The notes under the pieces are model-generated. The model did no database searches. It was not told where the DNA came from and worked only from the letters and a program-made list of their open reading frames with translations. A program made the position numbers and the translations under genes. DNA of 62,408 nt, counting the filler, from Rhizaria sp. SCN 62-66 (lineage: Eukaryota): assembly GCA_001724265.1 (NCBI GenBank). It is 4 parts of 4 records of this genome, joined end to end, with 100 filler letters (N's around TTAATTAATTAA, not from the genome) between each part and the next. Parts side by side here need not be neighbours in the genome. Positions count along the whole stretch, not along the records: positions 1 to 21,159 come from MEDY01000703.1; 3 more parts are not named here. One strand, written 5' to 3'. Shown one piece after another: positions 477 through 36,567 of the stretch (the first letter of the stretch is position 1; every line of letters starts with the position of its first letter).

Positions 477-3400
477 TTACAGTGTACAATCGCTAAGTCC
501 GAGATCCCAGAGCAGTGCAGCAGGAACCTCTACGGTGGGGAACAAAAGTGACAGTAACCACAACAGTTTTCGCGCCAATACAACGTCATCCGCCTCCGAG
601 CCCACAGAAGCGGCATTTGCGCTCACAGTCGGGCGTGCAGCCTCCGTGGCGACGAATAGCGGCGTCGGCGTCGCAACCGTGGCACCCGCAAGCACGAGCG
701 CGGGGTCATGGGCAAGCAGAGACGTCGCCTCCATATGCAGCGGCAGTTGCGCGCGCGCAATCGCAGTCGGCGCTGCGGTGGCTGCAGTCTGCGCAGCCGA
801 ATCAGGAACAGTGGAGTCGTTGGTACCGACTATAGGCACGTTGTGCGTATAGATGGCGTCTGCGAGGCGCGTGATGAACTCAAGGAAAGACGCCCATCCG
901 AGACCAAGGCCCATGCCGTTGGCACCGACACCACTTGCACCACCACTACCAGTGCTTGCACCAGCCCTGGAGCGCTTGCCAGGCTTAGAAGTTGCACCAG
1001 AGCCAGAGCCAGCGCTGTTGGTGGCACGCGCGGAGAGAGGAGCCTTACGTGGCGGCGAGTCCGCAGCACGTTGCTTCCCTCCAGTGCTGTTGTTAGTGTT
1101 GCGTTTACCCTTGGTTGCAGCAACAGGAGCATCTGCGAGCGCAGCTGGGTGGGGGTTCGTACGCGTGAACGCGGCGTCAATCGGGTCTTCACCGTCGTCA
1201 TCATCATCGTCGTCGTCATCATCATCGTCGTCATCGATAGCGCTGTCACCATCGTAGTAACCCTCGCCGTTGAAATCGGCAGCGCTGTCCTTGTTTTTGA
1301 AATAGTTAACGAGAGTGTTGTCGACATCACTATCAGCGACAACGGCGTCATTAGCAGTGGTGGATGCAGTCCTAATCACAGACACATGGTCAGATGTTGC
1401 AGATGTTGCAGCAGTTGCAGACTGGAAATTAGACCCCAAGACCGTGGTCACATTTTCCTTCAGGGCAGCGATCGCGCTGTTGCTCCCAGCTCCTGCATCA
1501 GATTCAGAGTCAGAATCACCGTCAGGCTTGTCAGTGATGTCCACGATTGATACGCGCGCACTCAGCCTCTTGCTATTCCTGGCACTCCTGCGACCAGCGC
1601 CGGTGACCAGCACACCAACAGTAACAGGAACGGGACTTATTGCAGAAGTGGCAACCCGAGCAAAGGAAGACGCAGTCGTATCGTCATCATCGCTGTCGCT
1701 GCTGTCACTGTTCTCGGGGAAGAAATCGCTTTCAAAGCTGTTATCACTATCACCGTCATCGTCTTCGTGGATGGTGTAGCTAGAGTAGTTGTTGTGAGAG
1801 CCCAGCTGCTCAGAGTCCTCGATGTAGTCGACGTCGTTGGCGTCCTCACTCGGACCGAGTCCGAGGAGCACATACGGCGCCATGCCGGCAACTGCCTCAG
1901 CGTAAGACCGCACGCCCATCGTAATACCCGCGCCTCCTGCGCCGCTGTTAGCGCCGCTCATGCCCACTGTCAGCACACTGTTACCGCTATTGCTGCCGAC
2001 GCCGCTGCCCGCGTTGCCATCGCCTGCAATAACAGCGCCGCCGCCGCGCCACGGGACGGCCGTGTGCGTGGCCGCCACGCCCCCAATGGCGCCCGCGAGC
2101 GCCGCCGCCGCACGCCGGCCCGCGCCGCCTTGGCCGCGGGGCGCGCCGGCGGCCAGTGCGGCGCCCGCGCGCGCGGCCGCAGAGCCCGTTCCACCGCGGC
2201 CGCCCGCTCCGGCCTCACCAGACGAGCTCGCACCGGCGTTGCTGCTGCCACTATTGATGTTGCTTGCGGCGGCGTGAGACACGTTCTTGCGTGCACCAGC
2301 TGCTGCTGCTGCGGCGGCCACGGCGGCTGCAGCAGTGACCGTGAGAGCGGCGCCAAGCGCAAGGATGGCGGGGAAGCGCGCGGTCGGCAAAGCGGCGCCG
2401 TAGCCTGCGCGACTGTAGCCCACGCGGAAGCCGCGGGTGTGGCCACGACTATCGCCGCGGCTGGGACTAGAGCTGGTGCCCGCGCGGACGAGTTTGCGCT
2501 GTGAGGAGGGACGCTGCGGTGACTGGGAGCGTGGCCGCGACTGCGGGCGCTGAGGTGACTGCGCGCGCGACTGCGTCTGCTCATTGCCATCACTGCTTGA
2601 AGGCACAGAGGACACCCAGGGGCGTCCCTTGGCCAGGTCCCGGGCAGCCACCCGCGCCTCTGCGCGCGCCCGCGCACGCGCTCGGGCGCGCGCCGGCGGA
2701 CAGGGGTCGTATATGGTCGCCGCAAGCACAGTCACGGGCACAGTCACCGTGACAGGGATGAGCACGTTCGCCCACCCAGAGCGCGCCGTGATAGCCGCTG
2801 CCAGCGCCGCCGCGGCCGCGGAAGGGATGGACCCGCGGCGCGCGGCGGACAGCCCGGCGGAGCGCACAGCGTCGGCGGCGAGGCCCACGCCGCCGGGGGC
2901 AGCAAAGGGCACAGGGACGGGAACCAGCATCGCCACGGCGGGGGGCGGCACGGCATGGCACAACGACGACGGCGCCGGCAGCGGGGGCGGGGCCGGCGCC
3001 GCGGCGGGCGGGCGCGCCGAGAGTGTCGTGGTGGCGCGGCACGCAATGGCGGCGACGGCGGAGAGAGTGCCCGTGGACAGACACGATTGCTGCAGAGACT
3101 GTTGCACGGCGAGAGCGGCGGCTTCAGCATCCTCCTCTTCGCTGTTCTTCGCAGATGACGATGACGACGAACCCTTACCTGCATTGTAAGCGCCAGTAGA
3201 GTTCTTAGTGGAAGCTGCTTTGCTTGCGGTTGCACTGGCACTGGCACTCGTACTTGTGCTTGCGCTAGGGTTTGTGACCGCGGCAACAGCCGCTGCGCTG
3301 GCCGCCGCAGCCGCCGCAGCGCTCACCACAGTCGGCGCTGCCCTGCTCGGCTCCGCCTTGTACGCAGGGCACGTGGGCAGAAGTGATGCAGACCACGTGG

Positions 3401-6400
3401 ATGCGCCGCCGCCGATGCCGCCGGTAGCCGCGGTCGCTGCACGCAGCATCACACCACCACCAGTGCCGCCGCGCGCGCCATTGCCGGCGCCGCTGTTGCC
3501 AGAGGTGGCTGCGCTCGCAGTCGCGCTGGCGTCGACGTTGTTCGCGGCAGCAGTGGCGGCAACAAACGACGCGAGGCCCGCAGCGGCTGCGGCGGCCGTG
3601 CCGGTGCCGGCGGCAGCGAGCGCCAGAGTAAGAGCGGCGCGCGGCGGCAAGGGCGGCGTGACATCAGCCGCGGAGGGCGGCGGCAGCGCCAACGTGAACG
3701 CGGAGATCACATCCCAGGATGTCAGCACCCGGGCGCTTACACCGGAAGGTAGCGGGATCATCCCCGCAACAGCGAAGGCAGCTTTGTTCACACCGCCACT
3801 AGCGTCGCTATTGTTTTTGCTGTTGCTGAGCGCGAGCACAGTCGTCGCGCCCCGCGCAAGTCCCAGAAGCCGTGCCAGGCCCTGTGCGGCAGGCAGCGTG
3901 ACACGGCGCCGCCTCACAGCTGCCACAGTGAGCAACGGCGTCCCCACAAGCGCGGCAGCAGCGCCAGCCCCCGTCTGAACAGTCGCGGCGCCGACCGAGG
4001 CGGCCACGATCGAGGCCGCGGCTGTAGCGGCTTCGGCGGGCGTGCGCGGCGGCTGCAGCGACAGCGCGGCGGCCAGCGGCAGCAGCGCGCGCGCAGTGGG
4101 GGCCGCGGCGGGCGCGGGCGGCAGCGCAAGCGTGGCGGCAGGCGTCACGGCGGTGAGCAGGTGCACGAGCTGCTGGGACTGCAGCGAGCACGGTGATGGC
4201 AGCAGCGGCGCCGCGGTGGCCTGCGCCGCGGCAGCTGCGGCCGCGCCTGCGCCCGCGCCGGGGGCGGATGATGTCGCAGCCGCAGTGGCAACAGCGGATG
4301 CAGCGGCAGCGGCGGCGGGCGAAGAGACGAGCGCGACTGCCGCGGGCGGGAACAAGCCAGGCAATGCTTGGAACACACGCAGAGAAGCAACACGCGCGGA
4401 AGCAACCGCGGCGGGCGTAACTGCGGCGGCAGCAGCGGCAACGGCGGCGAGTGCGGCAGCTGCTGCGGCGCTGGTGCTGCTCGCCAGCTCAATTCCTGCC
4501 GGCTTAGCGGGACTACTGTTGCCGCCGTCACAGCCTGCACCGCTGCCGTTTGCACCGCTGGACGACGCGGTGCCAGCGGAGACTCCTGCCCCTGACGCAA
4601 CCGCCGTGGCCGCCGCAGTTGCGACAAGCGCAGCGACCGCGTCGGCGCAGGCGCGCGCGGAGCCGGAGCCCGCGCCGCCGGGCGCGGTCGACGCGGCGGC
4701 AGCGGCGGCGGGCGCCGGGTCGGAGAGAGCGAGGAAGAGGTCGCGTAGAGACGGCGAGAACAGCGTGAGCACGGCGCGGGGGCGCGGGGTGTGCAGCAGC
4801 GGGCGCAGCGACAGCGGGGAGAGATAACGGGGCACGGCAGTGAGAGACGACAATGCTGAGTTTTTCAAGCCCTCATCCGCATTTTTGTCACTTTCAGGTT
4901 CAGCCTTTGTCTCCGTTTCTGCTGTTGTTGTTGACGTCTTGACCTTGACTTCAGTCGAGGTCTCAATATCGTAATCATCAGCGCTCTTGCGGTTTGTAGT
5001 ATTGGAGTCGCACAGCGCGCTCGAGATCAGAGGAGCGTAAGCTGGAAGCAGCGGCGGCAGCGGCGCAAGCGCAGTGTGCAGGAACGGGTAGAGCCGCTCC
5101 GTGAGCAGAGTGGCAAGCATGCCCGCTGCCTCTGCATCGACCGAGATGACGACGCGACCGCAGGCAGTTACGCTGCGGCTGCCAACGCTCGCACTCGACT
5201 GCGAAACGGTGACGGCAAGGGCGAGCTTAACAAGCACAGCATAGAATGCAGGCAGCGACAGCTGCTCTTGCGGGTTCGAGCGCAGAACAGCGGCTGCGCA
5301 CGCAACCTCACTCTCACTTGCACAGCTGTTTGCGGTCGCACCGCTGCTGCTGTTTACATTGCTGCCGCTGCTGCTGACGAACGTTTGTTGTGCCGGGATG
5401 CGGGCAAGCGCGTGCGCCGCTGCTTGGTGCCACCAGTCGCCCTTCCTGCCGTGGCATGCAATGACACCACTGGCACTGAGGATAGCACCTGCACCGATAT
5501 TGGCCTCAATACCGTCGTTAAGACCAACTTTGCGAGACAGGTTGCTGATGCTAGCGTCTGTGATCGAGTTCGAGGAGTTGGCATTTGTGCTGTTGGAGGC
5601 CGCAGGTGTGGTGATGGCAGCTGCGGCACTCTGCAGCGCACGCCAACGTTCATCGCCCTCACCACCACCACTGGCCAACCCCAGCGATAGCACAAGCCAC
5701 GATGAGGGAAAGTACGGCGGCGGCTGCGCGGGAGCAACGTCTCCGACCGTGGCCGCCGCCGCCAGCGCCACCGACGCTGCAGAGGGGGCGGGGGCAAACT
5801 GTAGCGCGGCAGCGGTGGCTGCTGCGGCGGCCGCGGAGGCAGGATGCAGGCCTGCCGTGGCGGCGGAGACAGCGGCCGCGGAGACGGCAGCAGCGGCGGC
5901 GGTGGCGGCAGCGGGAGCGCTAAAGAAAGCGGGCGAATGGCGAGTCGGCAGTGCAGTAATGAGAGAGGCGATTGCAGGAGGCATCAACGCGAGAGGCTGC
6001 GGCAAGGACGATAGTGATGATGACTGAAGTTCGTTGTTACTATTTGTGTTGTTTTGAGTGTTGGTGTCCCAATGTTGCAAAGTTGCATCAACAAACGCGC
6101 GCCGCCACACGCCCTTCCAACCACCAACACCGATACTGCCGCAAAAACGACGAGACTCTACGTCACGAACAGAAAGACCCCAATGCTGCTTCCCCGCCCG
6201 AGATTTCTGCTGTTGCTTATGAAGCAGTAGGAGCTGGCGGTGGTACAGGCGGTGCGTGCGCAGCAGCCTCTCCAGGTCGATCCCGACCGGCGGGTGCAGC
6301 GGCGCGCGCGGCGGGCGGCGGCGGAGGAAGGGGGGCGCCGCGAGCAGCAGAGCGGTGGCGACCTCCCCGGACACGAGCGCAGGCAACGCGCGGGATGAGG

Positions 6401-9400
6401 TGGTGCCGAGTGCAGAGGTTGCGGTTTGCTGCGGAGGCCCTGAAGTAGCTGCTGTCGATGACGTCCCTGGCGATGACTGCGCTTGAAACGGTGACATCGC
6501 AGGCGGTAACGGGGTCGCAGAGGCGGCAGTCGGAGTCGCTGCGCTCGCCGCAGTGGCTGCCAGCAGCGCAGTCTCCGCAGCAGAAATAGGGAGCAGCGGC
6601 AGCTCAAAGAGCCCGCTGTCGCTGCCGACCATGCTCCACGACGTTGCGGTGCCCGCAGCCGCCGCGCTCGCCGCGGCAGCCGCGGCCGCCGCCTCTGCGT
6701 TGGCAGCGGCTGTAACAGCGTCGTCGTACGCCTGTTTCGCCGCTGTTGCGCGGCATGCTGCGGTAAGCGCGGCCCAAGGCCCCCGGCGGTGCGCGAGTGC
6801 AAGCAGAGAGAACGCCGGCCGCAGAAGCGGGTCGTGGCGTGACAGCACGGCTTTGACTGCCAACAGTCCGCTCGGGGAGAGAACAAAAATCGGCTGGCTA
6901 TCGCTCCCGCTCTTTGCAGCGGTCACATTTGCATTAGTGACAGCTTGGCCACTGTTCTCAGCCTGAAGCTGCTGCTGCTGGTGCTGCTGTGGCTGGTGCT
7001 GGAGCTGTTGTTGCTGCGCAGTCGTGAGCAGCGTCCCTACAGTGGCCCACAACTCCTCGAAGTCCTTCCTGGCTGCCGCCGGTGTCGGCTCCTCCTCCTG
7101 TCCGCCCGCGACCGAGGGCGTGCCAGCCGAGACCAGCGGCAGCACCTCGGGCCGGCCGGTGAACAGCGCGGCGCGCGGCGGGGGCGCCACAGTGTGGGGG
7201 CGTGAATACTCGCGGGCGGCGCGGTCCGCGGTGATACAGCGCAACGCCGCGAATTCGGGGTCTGCGTCTGCAGCGTCCGCACTCACAGTGTTGTTTTGAC
7301 TTCCGCTGTCGTTGGCTACGCAGCAACTGCATTCAGAGATGTTATCATTGACCGTGGAATCATCATCATCGCCATCCTTGTTAGTGAAGAGTTCGCAAAG
7401 CAGCCACTGCTGCTCTGGCACTACAGACGCAGAACTATCCGCATCAGCAGCACCGCTGGGGTCGGATTTAGCGCCGCTATTGTTCGTGTTGTTGTTTTTC
7501 TATGAGATTGCGGCCTTAGCAACCGCGACGGCCTCCGGCGCCGGTCCGTCCCTACTGCCAGTCAGCACCGCCCTGAAGCTCGCGCCCAGCGCTGCCGACA
7601 GCAGCGGGTCCGCGCTGAGCACGGCGCTCATTGCGGCCCGCACCTGCTGCGGCAAACCAGCGGTCCAGCCGAACGCGCTCGCCGCTATGGCCACGCTGCC
7701 GGTCCCAGCGGCCGCTGCGGCCGTTGCGGCGGAGGCAGCGGCTGCGGCAGGGGAAGACGACGCAAGCAGAGACTGTAGCGCTGGGGGCGGCGGGGAAGCT
7801 GGCGCGAGGGGCAGCGGCAGCGCGGCGGGGGTGGCGAGGTTCTGTGACGACGCTCCCGCAGCGTAGCCGGATAGCGCCACGCTGCCGCTGGCATTGCTCG
7901 CCGAGCTTGAGCCATTCGCGGAGTTGGACACATTGCCGCTGGCGCTGCTGCTGTTGCTGCTGCCCGTGCTACCGTTGCTCGCGAGAGGAAGGCGGAAGAG
8001 CGGGTGGCCGTGTTGGTTTGCAGACAGCGCACAGTCGAGAGCAAGCGTCGTGAGAGGTGGGGCGCGGTTGGTGCCGAACAGGCGCGGCGGCGCTGGGGCG
8101 GCGCTGTTAGCAGAGCGAGCAGGAGGACGCGGGGACAAGGCAGGGCCCGCAGTCTTAGTCCTGAGAGCAGTCGCTATTGTTGTCCCACTGAGAGCGTTCT
8201 CACCAGTCTCCTTCAAGGTCTCAGTGATACTCTCGTTCCCGTCGCTTGTAACAGCGACGATCTCGGGATCAACGCTAGTTTTTGGCTCAACTTCTTCATC
8301 AATGACAAGCTCAGACTCAGCAGCTGCATCAACCACACCAGAGCTTGCGTCAGCTTCGGCGACAAGATCAACAGTAGCATCCGTGTTTGCCTCAAGATGG
8401 CTTTGGTCACCAGCTGCCTTATCATCATTACCATTGCTCACAGTCGCTTGCGCCGCCGTTGCCTTCGTCTTCTTCGCAGTTTTAGTCTTCGGACGCGGCA
8501 ATTGTGGCGGCGCGGGCGGAGCTTTGGGCACAACCACGGTAAGCACTGCTTGCCCAAACGCCCCCGTCACTGCGGCCGCGGCGAGCAGCAGCCCGATCAC
8601 AAGCGGGGGCGCGCGCGGGTCCGCCGCAGCCGCGCGCGCGAGGGCGCAAAACCGCGCGGCTGTGGCGGTCGACGCCGCGGGCGCAAGCGTGGCGGCCGGC
8701 GAGGTGAGCGGGAGCGCGGGGACGGGCACTGTGGACGTGGCGGCGGCGGCCACCGCGGCTGCGGTTGCGGGAGCAATGTTGAGCGCAGCCGTGCGCTGCT
8801 GAGCGGCCTTTGAGGTGCCGGTAGTCGTCAGTGCGCTGTTGCTGTTGCTGCTATTGCTTCCGGATGAGGTGCTGGGCGCAGGAGGCGGGTGAGTGAATGA
8901 GGCAGCGAGCCACAATGTGTTGACGCTGGCAGCACGTGCGGATGCGCCTCGCTGCTGCTGCTGCTGCTGCTGCAAACCGTTGGTCGCGCTGGTGGCGTTG
9001 TTGCTGTTGCTAAGTGTATCAGATGATGTCGTTAAGAGAACGACACCTTTTTTGCTCGCAGCCATGGCTGCTGTTGCTGAGAGTCCAAGCTCGCGTCCCT
9101 GCTCAAACTCATCACTATGAGAAGCATCTGTGTGACTGTGCGAGTTGTAAGTGTTTGCAAGCACTACCTTCCCCAGCCCGACCGCTGCCACAGCGCCCGC
9201 GTGCACGAGCACGGACGGCGGCATCGTCTGCCACCACTCAGCGGCCGCGGCCGCCGCGGGCAGTCCGTCGGGAAGACTCCTTTCGGTGACGGCCCAAGCG
9301 CCACTCGCATCACCGGCAGAAGAGAAAGTACTCTGCCTGAGACACACACGGCGCGGCAGCGCGTTGAGGTAGCTCGCCGTGATGACGCGCATCGCGAGCC

Positions 9401-12400
9401 TGCGCAGCGTGAACTCGAGACGGAGCACCGCGGCCACGTGCCTCGGCAGTGGACGCAGCACGACGCCGCCGCCAATGCCCGCGCTAGCAGCGGCCGCCGC
9501 AGCCGCAGCCGCCGCGGCGGTGTTAGTCGCGGTCGCGGTCGCCGCGGCGGGGGGCGGGTGGCCCGCGGCGGAAGAAGCCGCGGTGACAAACGCCAACAAG
9601 GCCGCCATCGCGGTCGGGCTTGGCGGCGGCGGCAGGAACACGTCGACGTCGATCGAGTGCGGGGCAATGTGGCTCGGCCACTGGCACGCTGCGCCCGCGC
9701 AGACGCCGGTGTAGCTCACAGTCGCGGCTGCGGCTGCGGCCGCGGCTGCAGACGCGGCGGAGTTGGCGCTGCTGTAACTGCTGCTGGGCTTGCTGGTGAT
9801 GATAGCAGGAACTGTAATCGGAACGTTGGCAAGAAGACCACAGTGAAGACACACAGGAGGAGGGAGAGCTGCTGCAATGGGAGTGAAAGCAACAGTACTT
9901 GCGTCAGTCACAGTGTTACTCGCCCCATTCGTTGCGTCGAGGCTAGTGGTCTTTGCGTTAAGATTGTTGCTCGTAGCCGTCGTTGTGTTGGAAGATTTAG
10001 TTGTTTGTAAACGAGCCAAATAGTAGCGACTTGTGCCGTGTTTATCACCAGTCGTCGTCGTATTGCTATTGACAGGTAGTGAGGGTACTGTAGCGGCAGG
10101 GTCAACCGTCGGTGTTGCAAGAGCCTTTGAAGTGTCGGCGAGGTCCTTTGATGGCGAGCCAATGGACGACAGCACCCCCCCACTTTGTTTCACACTTGTG
10201 CCTTGCTGTTGCTGTTGTTGCTGCTGTTGTTTCTGTTGCTGGTGCTGCGCCAGCACGTGCTGCGTGCGCGCACGCTTCAGCGCAAGCGCCTTCTTCACGA
10301 TCTGCGCTTTAAGCGCCAAGTTGGGCACTGTCTCAAAGCTTGCTGCCATTGAGGGCGTCATATATCCCGCATTGCGCGAACCAGCGTTCGCGTTGCTGTT
10401 CGTAAGCGCAAGCCCACCGCTGGCGGCCGCAACAGCAGCTGCCATCACAGTAGCGCCGGCGCTCATGTTTGAATTTGCACTCGATTTCGCGACTCTTGCT
10501 GTGGGATTGCTGGTGTTGCCGTCCTCACTGATCAAGCGAGGCACGCGAACGCGTGGCGGGGCCACGGCCAGCGGGTCACACGTCTGCAGCAGCGTCCCCG
10601 AGCTGGGGTCAGGCACCGATACTTCCCACGCCGCCAGCGGGTCACCGCCGGGAGGGCCGAGTAAGTCAGCACATGTGTCGCCGTGCCCACAGCTCTTGTT
10701 GCTGTTGCCATTTGGCTTATTAATGAGCGCGAAGCGCAGCCCACCACCGGGAGCAGGCGGCGCTCGGCCACCGATCGTGGTCGTGGTCACAGTGACAGAG
10801 CCTGAACCGGTAGCGGGCGCAGACGTAACCTTGTCACCAGCAGTCGCAGTGACGCCACAACCGCAGCCGCCATTGTTATGAAGCGAGCAGCCACTGGTCC
10901 CAATAGCGGCTGCCACAGCTGCAGCCGCAGGGGCCGCTGCCCAAGCGACGACAACAGCTCGATTGACTCCACGCGCGGTGCCATTCCCATCGGCGCTGCT
11001 ATCAAGCCCCTGGCCGTGCTCCGTTCCCGACGCAGTGCTGTCGTTGTCGCCGTTGTTTTGACGCGGCTTTGAGTTGGTCCACAAACGAGTCGCCGGGTCC
11101 GGCGCCGCGCTCCAGCCCTGCGCGCTAACGTGCGCGCTCAGTGGCGGCTGAGAGAAAAGGCCGCGCGCCTGGCGACGCGGGGAGCCCATGCCCAGTCCTC
11201 CGCCAACTGCATTCGCGCTGACATCGTTCGCGCCACGCTCAAAACTTGCACGGTAAGACGTGTTTGTTGACTCAGGACCGTCTGCACCTGCATCAACGCC
11301 ATCGGCAACTGGGGCCTCAGCGGCTTCAGCCGAAGTGCCGGCACGCGTCGCCGTCGCAGACAGCAGTCTCTGCGTCAGGCGCGCCCGCACACCGGGCCCT
11401 GCGATGCGCGTCGTGCCACCGCCCAAGTGCAGCAGCGCGCCTGTGCCACTGGTGACGCCGGCGCTGTTGACGCTTACACCGTAGCCATGCGAGCCGGCGA
11501 CTTTGGCACCGGTCGCGTTTCCGGTCGCATGATTTGCGTTTGCATTGCTATTGGAATACGCATCGTCGGAGTCAATCGTGGCGAGCGTCGCAGGCAGCGG
11601 AAACGGGAGTTGAGTGACACCCTTAGACTCAACCTCTGCCCGCCCACGCGCATCACGGTAAGTACCAGAGTTGCCTCCCACGAGTACTGCGTTGATCACA
11701 TTGGCGCCTGAACTGCTGCTAGTGTTGGATAGCAGAGCGTCTGCGGCCGTGTCGGCGCCGACGCGACAGTAGTGGTGCGTTTTGTGCTCAGCCGGCACAT
11801 GCAGGCTGCTGGGGCCATCGACTGCAGGGATGTTGGCAAGCCGGCGACGCGCGGCGCGGCGCTGAGCAGCGACAAGCAGAGCAGCAGCCGCAGTGAGGCC
11901 GGGACCCAAGTGCGAGTGCGCGTGCGGCAGAGGATTGCTGCTACCCGCTTTCACACCGTTACCCTGGCTGGCGGTGGCGTTAACAGTGCTGTTACTTGCG
12001 CTCGTGCGACTAGTAACGCTGCCGTCGGCTGACGTGTTGATCCTGAGATTGTTTGTGGCGCGAGGGTTGACAAATGAAGTGGTCGCAGCGCGGGCGATCG
12101 GGGGCGGCTTGATCTTCAGTTCTTGTTGCTGTTGTTGTTGCTGCTGCGGAGTGACGAGAGCTGTTGTTGCTGTCGCAGCTGTTGACGCTAACACTGACAC
12201 AGGCGCGGCGGTGATAGGGCCTATCGCCGTAGTAGTGACATCAGTGCTACCACGACTGTTCATGTTGGTGACGCTGTTGCAAGTGTGCGTATGCGTGACG
12301 GAGCTGGAATTTGTTGAGACAAACCCAGTTGCAGTCGAAGTTGGCGCGGCTGAAGTTTTCGGCACAGCAGAGACTGTGCTCGCTCTAGTGACCGTTGCAA

Positions 12401-15269
12401 CAGCGTTTGAGCCTGTCATGGAGACAGTATCACTCGCAGTGTCACGATTTCTTTGGATGTTGGCGTGGCCGTTACTATCCGCATTTGCGTTACTAATGTT
12501 GAGCGTTCCAGAAGCGGCAACAGGTTTTGAACTCAAGACAGATACAGTCGTAGACGGAGCTATTGGTGTCGTTACAGAATCGCCGACGGCAGTTTTCGGG
12601 TCAGAGCTTGGACCTAGCAGTGTTGCTGCAAGCTTCTGCGCGGCCAGCAGCCTTGCCCGCGCTGCCAACTCTTCGCCGTCTGCGATATCTCCAGCGTTTG
12701 CAACATTGGAACTCGCCACGCCACTGTTGTTAACATTGCCGTTGGCATTATCAGGGAAGTTAGACATCGTCGGCGCGCGTGAGTATGCAAACACCTCCTT
12801 ATCAGACGCCCAATATCCTCCGGCAGCAGTATTGAGCTGTCCAATGCTTCTGTATCCGCCACTCTCATCCTTGCTCTTGAGTGCGGCTGCCGTCGCCGCC
12901 GCAGCAGCGTCCGCCGCCGCCGCCTCAGCCCGGACGCGCCCGCTGTTGCCTAGCATCGACGTCGCCGCGGCCGTGGCGGCAGCGGTGGCGGCGGCGCCCT
13001 CGTAGCCCAGCCGCTGCACCATCGCGGACGACAGTAGCGGTAGCGGCGGGACCGTCTGGCGCGGCGTCCGCAGCTCGCGCTCGAGCTCCAGCTGCTGCGC
13101 CTGGCGCTGCTGCTGTTGCTTCTTGGTCAAACCACTCATCAGTTGTTGCTGTTGGGTGTCTTGCTGCAATTGTTGCTGCAGCTGTAGCTGCTGTGATTTG
13201 ATGAGACTCGCAGTAACAATCTCACTTGTGGCAGCTGAAGTGCTGCCTGTGTAGGTGCTCGCATCGGTGCTGTCCGCTGTGTTGACAGCAGCAGATACGG
13301 ACGGAGGCAGCGGCTGTTGCCGCGGCAGCACAGACGCAACCTCAGTCCACGGCGCAGACGCCAGCGCTACTGCGGCATGCGTCCGGCGCATCCGCGTCGA
13401 TAGAGAAGCATCGCTAATGGCAGCGGAGTCGAAGTTACCAGAGCTCGAAGACATGCCGTTGTTAGTTGCTCTTGCGGTCATTGCAGCAAGCTCGAACCCA
13501 AGCCCAAACTCCCCTGCGCCAGCCGCGTCCTCGCCTTGGTAGTTCTCCTGTCCCTCTGCAGTGTGCAGCCGCGACAGGTCCAGCACGTCGCTGACCGTGA
13601 GCGGTGCCGTGGCGCTTAGGCCGGCCATTCCCGCCCCGGGCGCCGCGGCCGCAGTGTCTGCACGGCGGCGGGTGGCCTCGTACGTGTCGTAGCGGTCTGC
13701 GTACGCCCTGGGAGGCACGGCGGCGGCGCCGGACAGCAGCAGCTCGTTAACGCTGTCGTTCGCGTCCGCTGCCGCGCTGGCGCCGGTGGGCGCGCTGGCG
13801 CCGGTGTGAGTGGCCGGCGGCGGCAACAGCTTCGCCATTACTCTCCCGCCGCCGTTCTTACCAGAGGTATGGCTACCAGCGTTTGCGTTGTTACTGCTGG
13901 AATTGTAGGTATTGCGGTAGACCGAGAGAGGATCCGTGGCGAGAGAGGCCAGGTACGTGTGTCCCTGCCGGTCCCGGTCACGCAGCTTCTCCAGCACCAC
14001 CATCACCTGCCCCTGCCGCTGCCCCGTCCACCGCAACTTCGCTTCCACGCTCTCGTACAGCGCGAACAGCTCCGCGGTCACGCGCGCGCGCAAGGCCGCG
14101 CGGTGACGGCCACGGTCGCTTGCGGCGCGTTCCGCCGCGGCCGCAGCAGTGCCCGCGCCCGCTGCGGCGACGGCGACGGGAAAGACGTCGAGCAGGGGCA
14201 GCGGCGGCGGCAGCTGCGCCGCCGCGGCCTCGGCCACGACGACCGCGGCCGCGGCGGCTGCCTCGGAGAGCGATACTGCCGCCTTGGCAAGGGTCGACCG
14301 CAGCAGCGCGTGGCGGTGGTCGCAGTCAAAGCGGGCGCGCGCGGCCAGCGCGGCGTCGGCATTGGCGATGGCGGAGGCCGGCGCGGGGGCGGCGGCGGCC
14401 ACGGCCGAGGCCGCGGCGGCGGACGCGGCGGCTGCAGCGGCCACAGCAGCGTCGGCCTCAGCCTTAAGGATCTCAGCGGTCTTCGCAGCGGGCGGAAAGT
14501 AGCGACGCGAGGGCGCGACACGACTGTCTGCGGCCGCAGTCGATGACGAAGATGCCGAGGCAGAGTCTGCGGTAGCTGACGGCGATGACGGAGACGAAGG
14601 TGTGATTTGAAGCGCAATAGCAGATGCGGCAGAGGCGGTGCCAATGCGACGGATGTGCTCGGCGAGGCTCAACGGGCGCGGCACGTGCTCGGCCACAATG
14701 GCATTTCTAGCGGCCGTCGCAGCATCAGCTTTAGCAGGAGCGGGAGTCGAGGCGCTGGTGCTCAGAGCAGCGGGGGTGCGCCCAGTATCAGTTTGCGTGC
14801 TGTTCTGCGCATTGTTAGCGCGGGACTGAACGACATCAGAGCCGCTGCGAGTGCTTGTGGGGTTATTGGCCGAGTCGGGGATAACTGTGGCGTCTGAGAG
14901 AGGAATGCCAAGCTGCGACTCGAGAGATCGCAGCCGGGTCTCGAGACTGATGCACTGCAGCTCGCTCGTTAGCAGCGCGTCAATCATCGGTGGAATGGCA
15001 ATAACAAGCGCAGCGGGGCACTCCAGAAGGGGAAGTGTGGTGCGAGGCAAAGAAGATGCAGATGCACCAGAGCTAGAGAAATAGCCAGCACCAGGGCCAA
15101 CACCACTTGTTGCTGTGTCGGGAGCTGGTGCTGACAAAAGGCGTAGGAGTAAGTGCTCTGCGGGGGAGGAGGGGGGAAAAACATGCAAAAGATGGTCTAA
15201 AACCAAGGCTGAGTCGTTCTCCCCGACCCCAGACGCGCCGCGGTGCGGCGTGTCGGAGCGGCTCGACAT
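477..15269 (-). CDS. Giant (~4930 aa) Ala/Ser/Gln-rich low-complexity protein of unknown function, with one in-frame TAG at 7500-7502
   Basis: ORFs 7500..15398 and 477..7421 are in the same frame and are separated only by TAG plus 26 open codons (KNNNTNNSGAKSDPSG...). The likely start is ATG 15269, just after a TTTTCCACAG acceptor-like tract. The gene ends in TAA. No domain recognised. Confidence 0.7.
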
Positions 15270-16134
15270 CCTGGCGCTCTTCAGTAACCGAAGCTCGCTG
15301 TGGAAAAACAAGACTTGATGAAGCACAACAAGGACAAAAGTGAGAGGCATATTATTAAAAGTTGAATGAGAAAACGGTACAGTTTGCATTGTAACCAAAT
15401 TTCACAGGGCCTGACGAAGACTTTCGAGCACGCATAACGCATTTCGTTCGGCGACTTCCGCCCACGGTCAACAGCTTCGCCAGAGCAACTGCACATTTCT
15501 CAAATGGAGTGCTAACGATGATCATTAAGCTCAATCACACAGCGCTGTGACTTCTTGAAGACAACCTCGTCAGAATTCTGTTGCAATATGCAGCTCTGCA
15601 GTTGGTTATTGTCGTGCATTCGTCCTTGTCACTTGGTTCATGCGCGCTGTCGGACATCCACGTATGCCGAAGAGACCGACGCTTGTTGGGTGTTAAAGAC
15701 ACACAGATGATATGTTATGAGAAACAGAGGTTGTTATAACATGTTTTAGGGGCTTCATTACTGGTTTGCCTTTGTACATTTCTTGATGCCATAACTGTGC
15801 TGTCTATCAGTCAACTTTAGTAGGCGTCCCAGAGCTGCGGCATTGCATCCTGCTTTGCTTCAGGGCATTTTTATCCATGACACGAAACTAAAACTTTATT
15901 TATACGTTGTCATATGGTGGTGTTTGCTGTAGCTATTGCATATTCCGCTCTATGCTTGCTTGGCATTGATGACGCGCTTCTGCTCCTTTGCAACGCCAGG
16001 TCAATTTGAGTCAACATACCACATGATGAGCGCATGCCACAATGCTATGTTACACACTTGCATTCAAACCACTGACAACTTGAAACTCGCATTTTTATTC
16101 TTATTTTTTCAAATATAGCCGGCTTCCCACTGCC

Positions 16135-19100
16135 ATGTCTCATCCGTCCCATACCAGTGTGGAGATGGGGCACATGGGCAACAACGTGGAGGACGACTTT
16201 ATCCGCATCGCAGGTCTCGATTACACGGCAGAGGAAGTCGACCCTTTGCGCGCGCTCTGGCGGAGCGTGAACAATCCCGAATCTTCTGACGTGGACCGCG
16301 ACACTGCGCGCGTGGCTTTCTAGAAGTAGCGGACGCGCCTCAAGCAAATCGTCGCCGCGCGCGCGGCGATGCAGCGCCGCCACTGGGGCAACGTCTCTTG
16401 GCTCGACATCGTGTTGCAACGCTGGCTTACGCCCGTTATTACGCTTGCGTACCGCCACACCGTCACTGAGAGCGACGTCCCCGCGCTGCCCCACGCTGAG
16501 GGCGCGGCCGGCGTGGCGAACGACTTCAACCGCGAGTGGCAGCGCGAGATCGAGCGCGCCGTGCGTCTGCGCCAGCCGCCGTCGGTTGTGCGCTCGCTTG
16601 TACGGAGCAGCATCAAACCTTTCTCCATGATTGCGCTGTACGAGGTATTGCTGTACGGAGCGACGTTCATTTCTCCGTTTCTCATCGACGCTCTCACGAG
16701 CTTCTTCGAGCGCGCGGGCAACGGCGAGCCCACAGACGCGAGCGAGGGCTTACTCTACGCACTGGGGCTCGCGCTCGTTGCGCAGATTGCCGCGGCTATG
16801 GCTGTGTTCAAGTTTTTCTACATCACGATCTTTGGGCAGCGCATGCGCTCCATGGTGATGATGACCGTGTTCGACAAGTCGCTTGCCATCGCGCCCTCGG
16901 CCGCGGCGCAGACGACGACGGGCGAGGTCATGAACCTTATGGGCAACGACGCGCAGAGGCTGGCCGGCGTTGCGATGGTCACGCACATGACTTGGATTTC
17001 ACCCACCGTGATCTTCGTGTGCATGATGCTTCTGTGGACCAAGATTGGCCCCACTGCGCTCGTCTCCATTGCGCTGATGCTCATGCTGCTTCCGATGCAG
17101 ATGCTTGTCGCGCGCCTGGTGGGCAAGAACCGCCGTGCGACGCTCGTGTTCACTGACGCGCGCGTCAAGCAGGTCAACGAGATGCTGCAGGGCGTGCGCG
17201 TGATCAAGCTCTACGCATGGGAGGACGCCGTGCGCCGCACGCTGGCGGCGATCCGCGAGAAGGAGCTCCGCTTCATCCGCAACGGCCTGCTCTATCGTAT
17301 GCTTAACCTCGTCCTGCTGTTCGTGTGGCCCGCGTTAGTGACGTACCTTACCACGGTGGCGTACGCGCATCTTGGCAACGATGAGTTGGATAGCAACACC
17401 ATCTTCTTCATCCTCTCCTTCCTCAACGTCGCGCGTCCCCCTATTACGCTTATGCCCAACATCATGCAGTCGTTTGTCGAGTTCTTTGTCGCTGCACGCC
17501 GTGTATCCACGTACCTCACGCGCGCCGAGCTCCCCCAGCGCCCGCTGCTCCCCGCGCCGGCGCGCGCGCTCGCGCCCCAGCCGACCTCTACCGCGTCCAC
17601 GGCGATTACTGCGACCTCGGCCGGTGCGGGCAGGGGTGCGGTGCAATATGCTGCCGCCATGCCCGCACCGTCACAGGCGACGCTGAGCGCGTCCCTCGCG
17701 CTCGTTCCGCCCTACGCCACTCGCTTCGCCGTCGCCATGCGCCACGCCGCCTTCTCCTGGTCGCGCGCGCCGCTCTCCAGCGACGCCCCGCCCGTGCTCG
17801 CCGACGTGTCCCTCGCCCTGCTGCCCGGCTCGCTGACCGCGGTTGTGGGTCCCGTCGGCGCGGGCAAGTCGTCGCTGATCTCGGCCATTCTGGGCGAGAT
17901 GCACCTCCACGCCTCCGGTGACTGGGCGCGCGCCGCGGGCGCCGTCCCGTCGGGACTCACCGAGCAGGAGCGCGCGCTCTGGCATCTGGCAGCGCGCGGC
18001 GAGGCGCGCGCACCAGAAGCTGCGCCCGCCGTGCCCACGCAACGCCAGCGTCCTAACGCAAACGTGTTCAGCTCCGCGACTGCGGCCGCCCGCGGCGCAG
18101 GCACTGGCGTCGAGAGAGAAGAGCCCTGCGCGCTCTCGCCCGACACTGGGCTGCCGCTGCCGGCGTCGTTCCTGGAGCTGCCCGCGGCCGCGTACTCGAC
18201 GGCGATGCCGCCGCCGCCACCGCTGGCCGCGGGGCCCGACGGCGTGCTGCTGACCGAGCGCCCCGCGGCGGGCGAGCTCGACTGCTCGGACCCGCGCGCA
18301 GTGCTGCAGCTTGTCTGCCTGCGCGGCCGCGTCGGCTACCTCGCTCAGGACCCGTGGATCGTGCACGCGACCGTGCGCGACAACATCACGCTCGGCCTGC
18401 CGTACTCGCGCGCGCGCTTCGACGCCGTCGTCGCCGCGGCGGCGCTGTCGCCCGACCTGGCAATCCTGCAGCACGGCGCCGACACGGTCATCGGCGAGCA
18501 GGGCGTGAACCTTTCGGGCGGCCAGAAGGCGCGCGTCGCCATGGCGCGTCTGCTGTACCGCGCGGACCTGCTCGACGTGGTGCTGCTCGACGACCCCTTC
18601 TCCGCCGTTGACATGGGCGTCGGCAAGCACATGTGGGAGAAGTGCGTGCTGGGCGTGCTGCGCAACAAGACGCGCCTCATTTGCCTTAACTCGCACCTCC
18701 ACTTCCTGCGCCAGGTCGACGCCATCGCTGTGCTCGACACTGCTGCCGGTCGTGGGGCCTCCGCACCGACGACGCCCGTTCACGCCAACACTCAAGCTGC
18801 TCACGTACACGACATTGATCTCGACCTCAGCGTCGATTCAGGCGCCAGCCCTGTCGCTGGCGCTGGCGCAACCAATGCTGCGGTGGGGCTTGTCTCGGAC
18901 ATGACTCGCCGGCCCGTGACGACGATTGTTGCGCAGGGCACGTATGCAGAGCTGGTGGCGGCGGACGTCGAGTTTTCTCGCTTCGAGCACCACAACGAGG
19001 ACCACGACCCCGAGGAGCAGCCCGCGACTGGAGATACTGACAACGAGGACGACGAAGACAACGACGATGACGAAAATGTTCTGCCCGAACCTGACAATAC

Positions 19101-21159
19101 TGCGATCGCGCATGAGATCGTTGATGTCGAAGAGTCGGAGGCCGAAATCGACGAGAGCGAGTCTAAGAGTGATGCTAAAGTCACATCGCCCGAGACCGTG
19201 CGCCGTAGCTCTCTTGATGCACCTCGTGAGCGTGGGCGCGCGGCTAGTTCTGAGAAGCGCGGTCCCCATCATAACGCCGCGCAACCGCAGCGCCCCAAGG
19301 GTCACGGTGCGCCTGCCGGCGGTCGCCGGGGAAAGATTGGCGAGGAGCGGATGGTTAAGGGCGATGTTGGCCTTGGCGCCTATGCAACCTACTTCCGTGG
19401 CGGCTCATCCTTCCAGGTTATGGTGCTGAAGCTCAGCGTGATGGTTGTGCTGGCGCTGCTGGCGCAGTCGACGCGCATGCTGGTCGACTTCTGGGTTCTT
19501 GAATGGGCCAACGACTCTCCTGAATCTCCGACAAGCGCACACACACTGTCGTGGTGGGAAGGCACCAGTGGCATCATCATCACGTCATGCTTTGCTGCGC
19601 TGTTCCTGCGTACGTTCTCGTTTGTGTACACAAACATTTCGGCCTCGCGCAGTCTGCACGACAGCAACTTCGACCGCGTGCTGCACGCGCCCATGGGATG
19701 GTTCGACGTCACGCCGCTGGGCCAGATCATGAACTGCTTCTCCAAGGATATGGACGCTGTCGATGTCACTGTGCCTGATAGTCTCGTCACCGTTGCGCAG
19801 CAGACACTGATGCTCGTCGGTATTGTTGTGCTCGCCTGCATGTCGACCCCTGTGTCCTTGTTGCCTTTCGCCGGCATTGCTGTGCTAATGGGCTTGGCAG
19901 TTGTTTACTTCCGCCGCTCGCTCACACAACTCAAGCGTTGTGAGTCCCGTTCCTTTTCGCCTGTGTACGCCTCTTTCTCGTCGGCGACTAAGGGTGCGAT
20001 GACGATCCGTGCGATGGCGCTTATGCAACAGTTTACGGCGACGCACGAGGCGCTGCTGGACGTCAACACTAAGCTTTGCTATATCTTCAACTTTGTCCAG
20101 CGCTGGCTTTCGTTTCGACTTGATACGCTCTCTTGCGTCTACATCTTTATTGTTGGCGCGCTCGGCGTGGCATTGCGCGGCAGCGTCAATCCCCGCGTCG
20201 CCGGTCTCGCTGTTGTTTACGCGTACCAACTCACAGGTCTGCTGCAGTGGACCGTGCGCTCCGCGCTTACGCTGCAAGCCGCCTTCACCTCCGTTGAACG
20301 AATCGATCAGTACGCACACATCCCGCAAGAGCCTGGATACCGCACCACACCTGACGCACGCATTGCCGTGCGCCGTGCCGCTGCTGCCGCTGGTGTTGAT
20401 CTGTCATCATTCCCCATCGAAGTTACCAATGGTACTCCGCACATCGCGACGCACTCTGTCACCGTTTCCGCGCCCTCCGCGCCGTCCTCACCCGCTCGCG
20501 CCTATGCCCGCTTTGAGGGCGATGATAGTAGCAGCGTTGTGTCTGAGGCTGCGCTGACTGCCGCGGCGGTTGAGGACGCGCCGACGCAGCTGTACGGATG
20601 GCCGTGGCGTGGCGCGATGCGTTTCACGCGTGTGACGATGCGGTACCGCTCCGACCTGCCTATTGTCATTCATGACCTCTCGTTTGCGCTGCCGCCCGGC
20701 AAGAAGGTTGGCATCATCGGCCGCACCGGCGCAGGCAAGTCCTCACTGCTACTCATCCTGTTCCGCATGGTGGAGCTCTCCGCGGGCCGCGTTGAGATCG
20801 ACGGCGTCGACATCTCTACTCTCGGTCTCGGCGACCTCCGCGCGCGCATGTCTATTATCCCACAGCAGCCGACGCTATTCTCCGGCACTGTGCGCTACAA
20901 CCTCGACCCCTTCGGCCACCACAGCGACGCCGAGCTGCTGACGGCGCTGCGCCGCGTGCAGATGCTCGAAGTCGTCGAAGCCATGCCCGGCGTGCTGCAG
21001 GCGCCCGTCAGCGAGTTCGGCGGCAACTTCTCGCAGGGCCAGCGCCAGCTGCTGTGCATCGCGCGCGCGCTGCTGCGTAACAACAAGATCATCGTGCTTG
21101 ACGAAGCCACGGCCGCCGTCGACCCGGCGACTGACGCGGCGATCCAGAGCACAATCCGC
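16135..21159 (+). CDS. ABCC/MRP-type ABC transporter (TMD-NBD-TMD-NBD), 3'-truncated by the contig end, with two in-frame TAG at 16321 and 16327
   Basis: Walker A GPVGAGKSS, signature LSGGQKARV and LLDDPFSAVD in NBD1; GRTGAGKSS, NFSQGQRQL and IIVLDEATAAVD in NBD2. The upstream ORF 16135..16323 (gccATG, GC3-rich) is in frame with 16369.. Confidence 0.93.
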
Positions 21160-21259
21160 NNNNNNNNNNNNNNNNNNNNNNNNNNNNNNNNNNNNNNNNN
21201 NNNTTAATTAATTAANNNNNNNNNNNNNNNNNNNNNNNNNNNNNNNNNNNNNNNNNNNN
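21160..21259. other. Artificial contig spacer
   Basis: N44-TTAATTAATTAA-N44, giving stops in all frames. Genes are truncated on both sides. Confidence 0.97.
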
Positions 21260-31588: not shown

Positions 31589-31664
31589 TCAGAATGTCGA
31601 CGTCATGAAGTCGAACACGTCAGTGCCGCTCTGCTGCGACAACTGCTCCTGACTCCCCGCATCG

Positions 31665-31721
<57 letters not shown>

Positions 31722-36013: not shown

Positions 36014-36567
36014 GCTAGAGGAGAAATAAATAAAGAGATAGTACGATTGTGAGCCATTATTTAATACGAGTCTTACTCTTGGCGGCGCGGAATGTGGGCA
36101 ACTGACTCTTGAGTGTTCGTTGTCGTCAGGGGGCGGGCGCAGCAAACTTGTGCAACTTGAAAAATAATGCGAACAATCCAATTGACGTCCTGGTGAAGAC
36201 AGTCAATGTGTCTAGCTGTTTGGACAATACGGTGAGATCGGTGAATATTATTTTATATAAGTGACAGCTGTTTGAAGCGAGAAAATCCACAGACGCATAT
36301 TGTGTTAAATGTGGATTTGGGAAACTTAGCAATCCACTTTGGAGCGGCCGCGGGTGTGAAATTGATGCTTTGAGGGCATAAACGAATAACTATGTATGTA
36401 TTGATTGAAAGCGTGCACAGTCGAGGTGGTGACAACACTCGCTCGATAATAACAACGCACGAAGTTAATAAATATCCTCTCCTCGCTCTCGCTCTCTCGC
36501 CTGGATTCGTCCGTGGCCTGATTCGGTGTCAAGACGCGGACGAGCGCAGTGTGTCCTAAGTCACCCC

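What the first reader, a model, noticed from the sequence alone, without database searches (positions are those of the whole stretch)
16135..16371. Two in-frame TAG codons (TAG AAG TAG) in the ABCC transporter N-terminus (sites 2 and 3)
Seen: a gccATG at 16135 opens 62 GC3-rich codons, then TTC TAG AAG TAG CGG ACG CGC CTC AAG CAA..., continuing in frame to the 1612-aa ORF. It reads as a helix with Gln (VAFQKQRTRLKQ) or Leu (VAFLKLRTRLKQ). The rest of the gene has no lesions, so two nonsense mutations 6 nt apart are unlikely. The introns I could define here are 98-214 nt with GTACGT donors, unlike any GT..AG that could remove these TAGs. This is independent support for UAG reassignment.
Basis: partly seen in the sequence, partly recalled or inferred. 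Interest (0 to 1): 0.8.

Follow-up and report, generated by a model that had tools for sequence, protein, structure and literature searches.

The report
Translated TAG codons in ABCC gene
Two TAG "stop" codons lie inside a conserved, protein-coding N-terminal part of a transporter gene of an uncultured wastewater eukaryote, which suggests that this organism reads TAG as an amino acid rather than as a stop.

Summary
ATG 16135 opens 62 codons, then TAG (16321), AAG, TAG (16327), then 13 codons in frame to ATG 16369 of an ABCC transporter.

Comparison shows that the TAGs sit inside conserved coding sequence:
- A relative (L001) has the same 78-codon extension without indels. dN/dS is about 0.13 before the TAG. 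TAG is kept at codon 63, and codon 65 is GAG (Glu).
- A third, more distant metagenomic protein (P0075, 48% identity) carries the whole extension fused to the ABCC body in one ORF (Thr63, Glu65).
- The TAG-plus-spacer stretch is 75% identical with no gaps. The non-coding DNA upstream is 38% identical with gaps.

The proposed 39-nt intron is rejected. Its donor is absent in the relative, this organism's inferred introns are 98-214 nt GTACGT..AG, and the region is colinear with P0075.

A third in-frame TAG (7502-7500, minus strand) joins the two halves of a 4,975-codon ORF. Four of four gene ends use TAA or TGA.

Best reading (0.6): UAG is translated in this lineage, possibly as Glu. Not excluded: a split gene or uORF with reinitiation at Met79, readthrough, and UAG-to-UGG editing. 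RNA contigs did not cover the site, and no tRNA or eRF1 data were available.

The parts
16135..16320 (+). N-terminal extension of the ABCC gene, codons 1-62, from the conserved start ATG 16135
   Evidence: Against L001: dN 0.153, dS 1.219, differences by codon position 11/6/28, 0 gaps. Aligns without gaps to residues 1-62 of P0075. Coding score +0.247 in frame against -0.318 and -0.759 in the other frames.
16321..16323 (+). In-frame TAG, codon 63
   Evidence: TAG at the homologous codon in L001 (590-592). Thr in P0075.
16327..16329 (+). In-frame TAG, codon 65
   Evidence: GAG (Glu) in L001 and Glu in P0075.
16324..16368 (+). Codons 64-78 between the first TAG and Met79 (the 'spacer' of the uORF reading)
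   Evidence: TAG plus spacer (16321-16368): 36 of 48 columns identical to L001 with 0 gaps, against 159 of 420 columns with 35 gap columns upstream of the ATG. K64, R66, R68, L69, V73, R76 and M79 are invariant in all three sequences.
16369..21159 (+). ABCC transporter body from Met79 to the contig end
   Evidence: Pfam ABC_membrane (2 stretches, E 2.8e-59) and ABC_tran (3 stretches, E 1.5e-45). ABCC4 structures match from query residue 93. P0002 (1718 aa, 100% over the part compared) gives the full length.
7500..7502 (-).
   Evidence: With TAG read as sense, the ORF 15401..477 is 4,975 codons with this single TAG. The coding score is positive in frame on both sides. The first in-frame ATG after it lies 290 codons downstream. 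The X1 contig 6000-14421 has 0 differences. The X4 contig 6708-7511 has 0 differences but ends 9 nt past the TAG.
477..15401 (-). Giant low-complexity ORF (first ATG 15389, TAA at 477-479)
   Evidence: No Pfam family in either half.

Best explanation
In this uncultured, GC-rich eukaryote and its close relative, UAG is decoded as an amino acid. The ABCC transporter is therefore translated from ATG 16135 through both TAGs as one protein. Its 78-residue N-terminal extension precedes the canonical ABCC start. TAA and TGA remain the terminators. UAG is a rare sense codon: 3 in about 12,700 codons of the window's genes. Inferred, not shown: a tRNA with anticodon CUA and an eRF1 that no longer recognises UAG well. 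The residue may be Glu, because the second TAG stands where both relatives have Glu, one base away (GAG).
For: (1) L001, a relative with 81% identity in the ABCC body, has the same ATG, 62 codons, TAG at codon 63, AAG, GAG at codon 65, 13 codons, then ATG. There is no indel over the 234 nt.
(2) Purifying selection holds in this frame up to the TAG: dN 0.153, dS 1.219, with no such signal in the shifted frames. The extension has therefore been kept as a protein since the two species split, with the TAG in place in both.
(3) The stretch after the TAG is constrained. 36 of 48 columns are identical with 0 gaps, against 38% identity and 35 gap columns in the 420 columns upstream of the ATG. The binomial tail for 33 of 45 matches is 1.8e-7 at p=0.35 and 0.033 at p=0.59.
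(4) P0075 is an 880-aa protein of a third species, seen on 4 contigs. It matches query residues 18-140 in one stretch (E 7e-29) and aligns without gaps from M1. It has T63, K64 and E65, and seven spacer residues are invariant in all three sequences. The extension is thus ancestrally part of the ABCC protein. Met79 is an internal residue in that species.
(5) An independent site: one TAG inside a 4,975-codon ORF. The coding signal continues on both sides and there is no ATG for 290 codons after it.
(6) All 3 in-frame stops are TAG. 0 of 4 gene ends in the window use TAG (TAA 2, TGA 2).
(7) An intron is excluded.
Against: Only 3 TAG sites in 2 neighbouring genes were seen. The other four large genes (about 6,000 codons) have none. 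Two TAGs within three codons is odd for a rare sense codon and looks like a tandem stop. Met79 coincides with the first residue of CFTR and lies near the start of ABCC4, so a start at 16369 would give a normal short ABCC. In the 15 spacer codons the substitution pattern is not clearly coding: 4 synonymous and 7 non-synonymous changes, dN 0.28, dS 0.44. Four gene ends are too few to show that TAG is avoided as a terminator. The window has no tRNA at all, no eRF1 was seen, and no RNA or peptide across the site was obtained. The Glu assignment rests on one site. The other site aligns with Thr.
Confidence: 0.6

Rival explanations
1. Standard code with a split gene. The ancestral N-terminal extension became a separately translated 62-residue peptide (a conserved-peptide uORF) ending at TAG 16321. 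The transporter is made from Met79 (ATG 16369) by reinitiation or leaky scanning. The second TAG is a chance or back-up stop in the leader.
For: The first TAG is kept in both species. TAG AAG TAG looks like a tandem stop. Met79 aligns with the first residue of CFTR and lies close to the start of ABCC4. Gene callers list the 62-aa peptide and the Met79 protein as separate products (P0076, P0077, P0002, P0003), but they assume TAG is a stop, so this is not independent. The spacer dN/dS is not clearly coding.
Against: The spacer is as conserved as the coding flanks and has no gaps, while real non-coding DNA upstream is at random level. Its residues match those of P0075, where the stretch is certainly inside the ORF. 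Three in-frame AUGs (codons 1, 11, 14) precede Met79. From general knowledge of scanning, reinitiation after a 62-codon ORF across 45 nt is expected to be poor (inference). This reading does not explain the TAG inside the 4,975-codon ORF.
Confidence: 0.17
2. UAG is still a stop, but it is read through at these sites (programmed or context-dependent readthrough, or an ambiguous UAG). This would give both a short peptide and an extended transporter.
For: The evidence for translation beyond the TAG is the same as for the best explanation. Three of four TAGs in the two species are followed by AA (TAG AAG twice, TAG AAA once), which could be a shared context.
Against: The window species has two TAGs to pass, which would square a low efficiency. 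As recalled, not tested, a purine after the stop is a good termination context in most eukaryotes, and the known leaky motifs (a C after the stop, or CARYYA) are absent. Local RNA folds are no more stable than shuffles (z 0.78, 0.26, -0.54).
Confidence: 0.1
3. mRNA editing turns UAG into a sense codon before translation, for example A-to-I giving UGG. In Fusarium graminearum two tandem UAGs in PUK1 are edited to UGG (PMC4817773, start of abstract seen in the listing).
For: All three in-frame stops are UAG, and two are close together, as in PUK1. In the minimum-energy folds the first TAG lies in a hairpin loop in both species. Fungal editing prefers hairpin loops with U at position -1 (PMC11156358, start of abstract).
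Against: Editing would put Trp where both relatives have Glu (codon 65) and where the third species has Thr (codon 63), so it would not restore an ancestral residue. The folds are not better than shuffles. This type of editing is known only from filamentous ascomycetes. The ABCC here is only 26-30% identical to fungal proteins.
Confidence: 0.05
4. Not a working feature: a decaying gene, an assembly artefact, or a small intron (16291-16329) that removes the TAGs.
For: Nothing beyond the presence of the stops. RNA contigs shown did not cover the site, so splicing was not observed directly.
Against: The TAG is kept across species under purifying selection. It is seen in contigs of two studies and in 4 plus 7 contigs on record. 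The relative has GCC at the proposed donor. The candidate is 39 nt, starts GTGGAC and has GC 0.62, against 3 of 3 inferred introns of 98-214 nt that start GTACGT and have GC 0.42-0.55. P0075 has residues aligned to every codon of the candidate.
Confidence: 0.03

Closest known systems
Nuclear codes with UAG as sense and UAA/UGA as stops: Rhizaria sp. exLh (UAG=Leu) and Iotanema spirale (UAG=Gln), PMC5304391 (passages and section 7 read)
   Same: Only UAG appears in frame inside genes. Bona fide gene ends use UAA or UGA. These are non-ciliate protists from faecal or endobiotic habitats.
   Different: Those cases rest on 384 UAGs in 71 genes and 204 UAGs in 126 genes, with the residue assigned from many conserved positions and with candidate tRNAs. 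Here there are 3 sites in 2 genes and UAG is very rare. The one informative site points to Glu, not Leu or Gln. The lineage is unknown.
Oligohymenophorea sp. PL0344: UAG=Glu, UAA=Lys (PMC10553269, abstract read)
   Same: UAG read as glutamate, if the hint from codon 65 holds.
   Different: That organism is a ciliate. UAA is also reassigned there and only UGA terminates. Here TAA ends 2 of 4 genes.
Phyllopharyngean ciliates: independent UAG to Leu or Gln changes with UAA as the preferred stop (PMC11687900, abstract read)
   Same: UAG alone is reassigned and was found by mining metagenome-derived assemblies.
   Different: Those are ciliates with widespread use of UAG and identified suppressor tRNAs. 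None of this is shown here.
Blastocrithidia nonstop: UAR=Glu, UGA=Trp (PMC12153298, start of abstract seen in listings)
   Same: UAG as Glu, arising one step from GAG.
   Different: There all three stops are reassigned. This organism has spliceosomal introns, and its ABCC is only about 25% identical to a trypanosomatid-named hit (P0062).
Conserved-peptide upstream ORFs
   Same: Under the standard code this is a conserved 62-codon ORF in the leader of a larger ORF.
   Different: The 'uORF' is homologous to the N-terminus of the main protein in a third species. It is in frame, and the stretch between it and the main ATG is conserved like coding sequence.
Restorative A-to-I editing of in-frame UAGs in Fusarium (PUK1; PMC4817773 and PMC10776026, starts of abstracts seen)
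   Same: Two neighbouring in-frame UAGs in an otherwise intact gene.
   Different: That editing is fungal and specific to the sexual stage, and it gives Trp. The relatives here have Glu and Thr at these sites. Not testable here.
Short ABCC transporters (ABCC4, CFTR) and ABCC5
   Same: Two ABC_membrane and ABC_tran matches. ABCC4 residue 22 aligns with query residue 93, and CFTR residue 10 with query residue 88.
   Different: A 78-residue extension precedes the canonical start. ABCC5 also has a long N-terminal part (its residue 103 aligns with query residue 86), but no similarity of the extensions was seen.

Membership tests
Nuclear genetic code with UAG reassigned to sense (UAA/UGA stops) | In-frame UAG inside conserved coding sequence of several genes | tested here: met
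   3 TAGs in 2 genes. The ABCC sites are flanked by sequence conserved in two other species. The giant-ORF site has a coding signal on both sides. The sample is small: 0 in-frame TAGs in the other four large genes.
Nuclear genetic code with UAG reassigned to sense (UAA/UGA stops) | UAG not used as a bona fide terminator | tested here: inconclusive
   0 of 4 gene ends in the window are TAG (TAA 2, TGA 2). Four ends are too few.
Nuclear genetic code with UAG reassigned to sense (UAA/UGA stops) | UAG positions align with one amino acid in orthologues | tested here: inconclusive
   Codon 65: Glu in 2 of 2 relatives. Codon 63: TAG in one relative and Thr in the other. No orthologue was found for the giant ORF.
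Nuclear genetic code with UAG reassigned to sense (UAA/UGA stops) | tRNA with anticodon CUA, and altered eRF1 | not testable with these tools
   0 tRNAs in the window. No genome is held.
Nuclear genetic code with UAG reassigned to sense (UAA/UGA stops) | UAG present in mature mRNA (not spliced out, not edited) | tested here: inconclusive
   The polyA RNA contigs listed lie at 16450-16683 and beyond. None is listed over 16135-16400 (32 pieces shown, 5191 not shown).
Conserved-peptide uORF | Peptide conserved, and the ORF ends before the main start | tested here: met
   dN/dS about 0.13. Under the standard code it ends at 16323, 45 nt before ATG 16369.
Conserved-peptide uORF | The uORF is a separate unit and not part of the main protein, and the leader between them is non-coding | tested here: not met
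   It is fused to the ABCC body in P0075. The spacer is 75% identical with 0 gaps, against 38% with gaps upstream.
Spliceosomal intron removing the TAGs | GT..AG borders conserved in relatives, features like the organism's other introns, and extra length relative to intron-less homologues | tested here: not met
   The donor is GCC in L001. The candidate is 39 nt, starts GTGGAC and has GC 0.62, against 98-214 nt, GTACGT and GC 0.42-0.55. The alignment to P0075 has no gaps.
Programmed stop-codon readthrough | A single leaky stop in a known leaky context or followed by a stimulating structure | tested here: not met
   There are two stops in the window species. The next base is A at the conserved TAG. 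The folds are no better than shuffles. The list of leaky contexts is recalled, not taken from a call.
ABCC (MRP/CFTR-type) full-length ABC transporter | TMD-NBD-TMD-NBD with an ABCC-type N-terminal lasso region | tested here: met
   Pfam ABC_membrane with 2 stretches and ABC_tran with 3 stretches. The best solved matches are ABCC4, E 9.5e-48, from query residue 93. The C-terminal end is missing at the contig end but is present in P0002.

The most novel reading that the evidence does not exclude
An uncultured, GC-rich, intron-bearing, non-ciliate eukaryote found in wastewater and bioreactor metagenomes, and at least one sister species, use a code not in the NCBI tables as I recall them: UAG = Glu, with both UAA and UGA kept as stops. 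It would be caught at an early stage, with UAG used only about once per 4,000 codons. That would make it a natural snapshot of how a stop codon is captured.
Probability: 0.3. Interest if true: 0.8.

Novelty: new member of a known kind. Interest (0 to 1): 0.65.

Why it matters
Changes of the nuclear genetic code are rare. UAG-only changes outside ciliates are known from very few lineages (PMC5304391). If this holds, it would add a lineage known only from metagenomes. It might also add a new codon meaning (UAG=Glu with UAA still a stop), at a stage where the codon is still very rare. Such a stage bears on how reassignments begin.

There is also a practical consequence. Gene callers currently split or truncate this organism's genes at TAG. 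The databases hold the 62-aa piece and the Met79 protein as separate entries.

Tried and rejected
RNA evidence. One search for runs and one laying (runs X4, X6, X16, X1). The polyA RNA contigs of X6 that were listed lie on the ABCC body (16450-16683, 17649-17986) and on both halves of the giant ORF. None is listed over 16135-16400 or across 7500. Only 32 pieces were shown and 5191 were not. Only 15 joints were shown and 353 were not, and none of those shown lies at 16291-16329. This allows no conclusion on splicing or editing.

Homologues of the giant ORF around its TAG: none at E<=0.001 among 8000 candidates. Low complexity probably swamped the word search. Even the organism's own product did not appear.

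More DNA loci. Genome contigs gave 161 pattern matches and viral contigs 92, with 0 relatives in each. The metagenome scan gave 1 locus. No whole genome is held.

The last protein search, for longer proteins, found only P0075, P0003 and P0002.

Earlier findings of the scan: nothing.

Lineage. The Atlas look-up of the AAA protein was uninformative. I considered a kinetoplastid because a pyrimidine tract plus AG stands before the ATG. I dropped this because introns are present and the trypanosomatid-named ABCC hit is only about 25% identical.

Other GT..AG pairs. Window 16312-16329 (18 nt) has no GT in L001. The 57-nt GT..TAG that is possible in both species would delete residues invariant in all three sequences (N46, R55, A61, F62).

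RNA structure at the TAGs is not more stable than shuffles.

Literature searches found no paper on a GC-rich wastewater protist with UAG as sense. This rests on those three word searches only. Supplements were not opened.
Full report
WHAT THE WINDOW IS. The window is not one molecule. It holds four contigs joined by N44 + TTAATTAATTAA + N44 linkers: 1-21159, 21260-36862, 36963-56308 and 56409-62408. Three contigs have GC-rich genes (GC 0.6-0.8) with AT-richer spacers. The third contig is a eukaryotic rDNA unit. No genome is held for the window. Near-identical DNA occurs in bioreactor, wastewater and sludge metagenomes of several studies. Part of it occurs in a polyA metatranscriptome of activated sludge. 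The organism is an uncultured eukaryote and I could not name its lineage.

THE OBSERVATION. ATG 16135 opens 62 codons. These are followed by TAG (16321-16323), AAG, TAG (16327-16329) and 13 further codons, then ATG 16369, which heads the 1612-codon ORF. All are in one frame. The ORF is an ABCC transporter: Pfam ABC_membrane E 2.8e-59 and ABC_tran E 1.5e-45, and ABCC4 structures at E 9.5e-48. It has no lesion and simply runs off the contig end. A database protein that is 100% identical over the part compared gives the full 1718 aa from Met79. A DNA-run contig (X1) covers 14393-16539 with 0 differences. A contig from a run of another study (X4) covers 15644-16339 with 0 differences. The exact 62-aa product is on record from 4 contigs. 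The TAGs are therefore real.

RELATIVES. Upstream of its ABCC ATG (L001:638) it has the same arrangement: ATG at 404, 62 codons, TAG at 590-592, AAG, GAG, 13 codons, ATG. The two sequences align over these 234 nt without a single gap. Upstream of the first ATG similarity drops to 38%, with 35 gap columns in 420.

- Codons 1-62: dN 0.153, dS 1.219, differences by codon position 11/6/28.
- ABCC body, codons 79-358: dN 0.112, dS 0.596.
- The two shifted frames show no excess of synonymous change.

The extension is therefore a translated, selected protein sequence right up to ..A-F-TAG in both species. It has stayed so with the TAG in place.

The exhaustive HMMER search with the first 140 residues found 3 proteins:
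- the organism's own Met79 protein;
- the relative's 62-aa piece (P0076);
- P0075, an 880-aa protein of a more distant species (48% identity, on 4 contigs), matched over query residues 18-140 in one stretch.

P0075 aligns without gaps from M1 and reads ..FEAF-T-K-E-RERLQQVVTTRQEM-KLRH... In that species the extension, the 'spacer' and the ABCC body are one open frame. Met79 is an internal residue there. K64, R66, R68, L69, V73, R76 and M79 are invariant in all three sequences.

Codon 63 is TAG / TAG / Thr. Codon 65 is TAG / Glu (GAG) / Glu. The order is window, L001, P0075.

WHAT THIS EXCLUDES. An intron is excluded for three reasons.
- All its codons have aligned residues in P0075, several of them invariant.
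- It does not look like this organism's introns.

They are 98, 102 and 214 nt, all GTACGT..AG, with GC 0.42-0.55. Removing them leaves an open frame of 1336 codons from ATG 36013 to TGA 31589. These are inferred from sequence, not from RNA. The candidate is 39 nt, starts GTGGAC and has GC 0.62.

A recent nonsense mutation or gene decay is excluded by the conserved TAG under purifying selection.

WHAT REMAINS. Either ribosomes translate through UAG, or the ancestral N-terminal domain is now made as a separate 62-aa peptide and the transporter starts at Met79.

For the second reading:
- Met79 corresponds to the first residue of CFTR and lies near the start of ABCC4.
- TAG AAG TAG looks like a tandem stop.
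- The 15 spacer codons alone do not show a clear coding pattern (4 synonymous and 7 non-synonymous changes).

Against it:
- The TAG-plus-spacer stretch is 75% identical with no gaps, like the coding flanks and unlike true non-coding DNA.
- It has kept half of its residues in common with P0075.
- Three in-frame AUGs precede Met79.
- It leaves a second, independent case unexplained.

THE SECOND CASE. On the minus strand a single TAG (7502-7500) separates a 2632-codon ORF from a 2349-codon open frame in the same phase. Read through, they form 4,975 codons ending at TAA 477-479. The coding score is positive in this frame, and negative in the other two, on both sides of the TAG. GC does not dip as it does in spacers. 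The next in-frame ATG is 290 codons downstream. Both halves appear among the polyA RNA contigs. That does not show a single transcript.

All three in-frame stops in the window are TAG. A scan that relaxed TGA or TAA in the same way found none inside the known genes. The four gene ends that can be read use TAA twice and TGA twice.

MECHANISM. The best-supported reading is that UAG is a rare sense codon in this lineage. There are 3 in about 12,700 codons, summed. UAA and UGA act as terminators. A suppressor-type tRNA(CUA) and a changed eRF1 are inferred by analogy with the published cases (PMC5304391; PMC10553269 and PMC11687900 abstracts). They were not seen.

The residue is open. GAG to TAG is one step, and Glu is conserved at codon 65 in both relatives, which makes Glu the first guess. 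Codon 63 (Thr in P0075) gives no help.

Rivals are the split gene with reinitiation, site-specific readthrough, and UAG-to-UGG editing. Readthrough is disfavoured by the two stops and by the A after the conserved TAG. The editing rival is modelled on the Fusarium PUK1 case (abstracts). It would place Trp where the relatives have Glu and Thr, and the local folds are no better than shuffles.

COMPARISON AND NOVELTY. UAG-only reassignment with UAA kept as a stop is known from Rhizaria sp. exLh (Leu), Iotanema spirale (Gln) and phyllopharyngean ciliates (Leu or Gln). UAG=Glu is known from the ciliate PL0344 and from Blastocrithidia, but together with a changed UAA. This would be a new member of that kind in an unnamed lineage. 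If Glu holds, it would be a new combination.

My three literature searches found no description of it. Supplements were closed and were not consulted.

The evidence here is comparative and limited to two genes. The decisive data (RNA across the sites, a genome-wide codon survey, tRNA, eRF1, peptides) could not be obtained.

Noticed in passing
window 7500-7502 (minus strand), ORF 477-15401: A single in-frame TAG joins a 2632-codon ORF and a 2349-codon open frame into 4,975 codons of low-complexity protein with no Pfam family. No homologue was found.
   Followed up: partly
window 21160-21259, 36863-36962, 56309-56408: N44 + TTAATTAATTAA + N44 linkers. The window is four contigs stitched together, so neighbouring genes across these points are not linked. 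There is also an inner gap at 39164-39214.
   Followed up: yes
window 41421-54292: AT-rich contig (GC 0.35-0.45) with a eukaryotic rDNA unit: SSU 41421-45865, 5.8S 46915-47066, LSU 47173-53935. It carries 9 group I intron hits, 4 in the SSU, 4 in the LSU and 1 just past the LSU match. Its composition differs strongly from the GC-rich gene contigs. Whether it is the same organism was not tested.
   Followed up: no
window 48209-48907 (+): ORF of 233 aa with a His-Me/His-Cys-box homing-endonuclease zinc loop (PF05551, E 1.1e-5, just under the curated cut-off). It lies inside the LSU next to the group I intron core at 48935-49285.
   Followed up: no
window 35052-35923 (minus strand): Three inferred spliceosomal introns of 98, 102 and 214 nt, all GTACGT..AG, at the 5' end of a gene that then runs open from ATG 36013 to TGA 31589 (1336 codons, no Pfam family).
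   Followed up: yes
window 16060-16134 and L001 250-403: In both species a pyrimidine-rich tract followed by AG stands shortly before the start ATG. The sequences themselves are not alignable. Its meaning is unknown (promoter or leader feature?).
   Followed up: no
P0075 (third species), residues 860-880: The predicted protein leaves the ABCC alignment after ..DDPFSAID and stops 13 residues later. This is probably an intron or frame problem in that contig. Its DNA could not be read.
   Followed up: no
window 39767-40582 (minus strand): Open frame with a good coding score on both sides of an in-frame TGA (40240), in the spacer part of the rDNA contig. It may be a repeat or an artefact of the scoring.
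   Followed up: no
window 23750-30751 (minus strand): ORF of 2333 aa with very high GC3 (0.84). Its only Pfam hits are weak EGF-like matches (EGF_2 E 1.6e-4). It ends in TAA.
   Followed up: no
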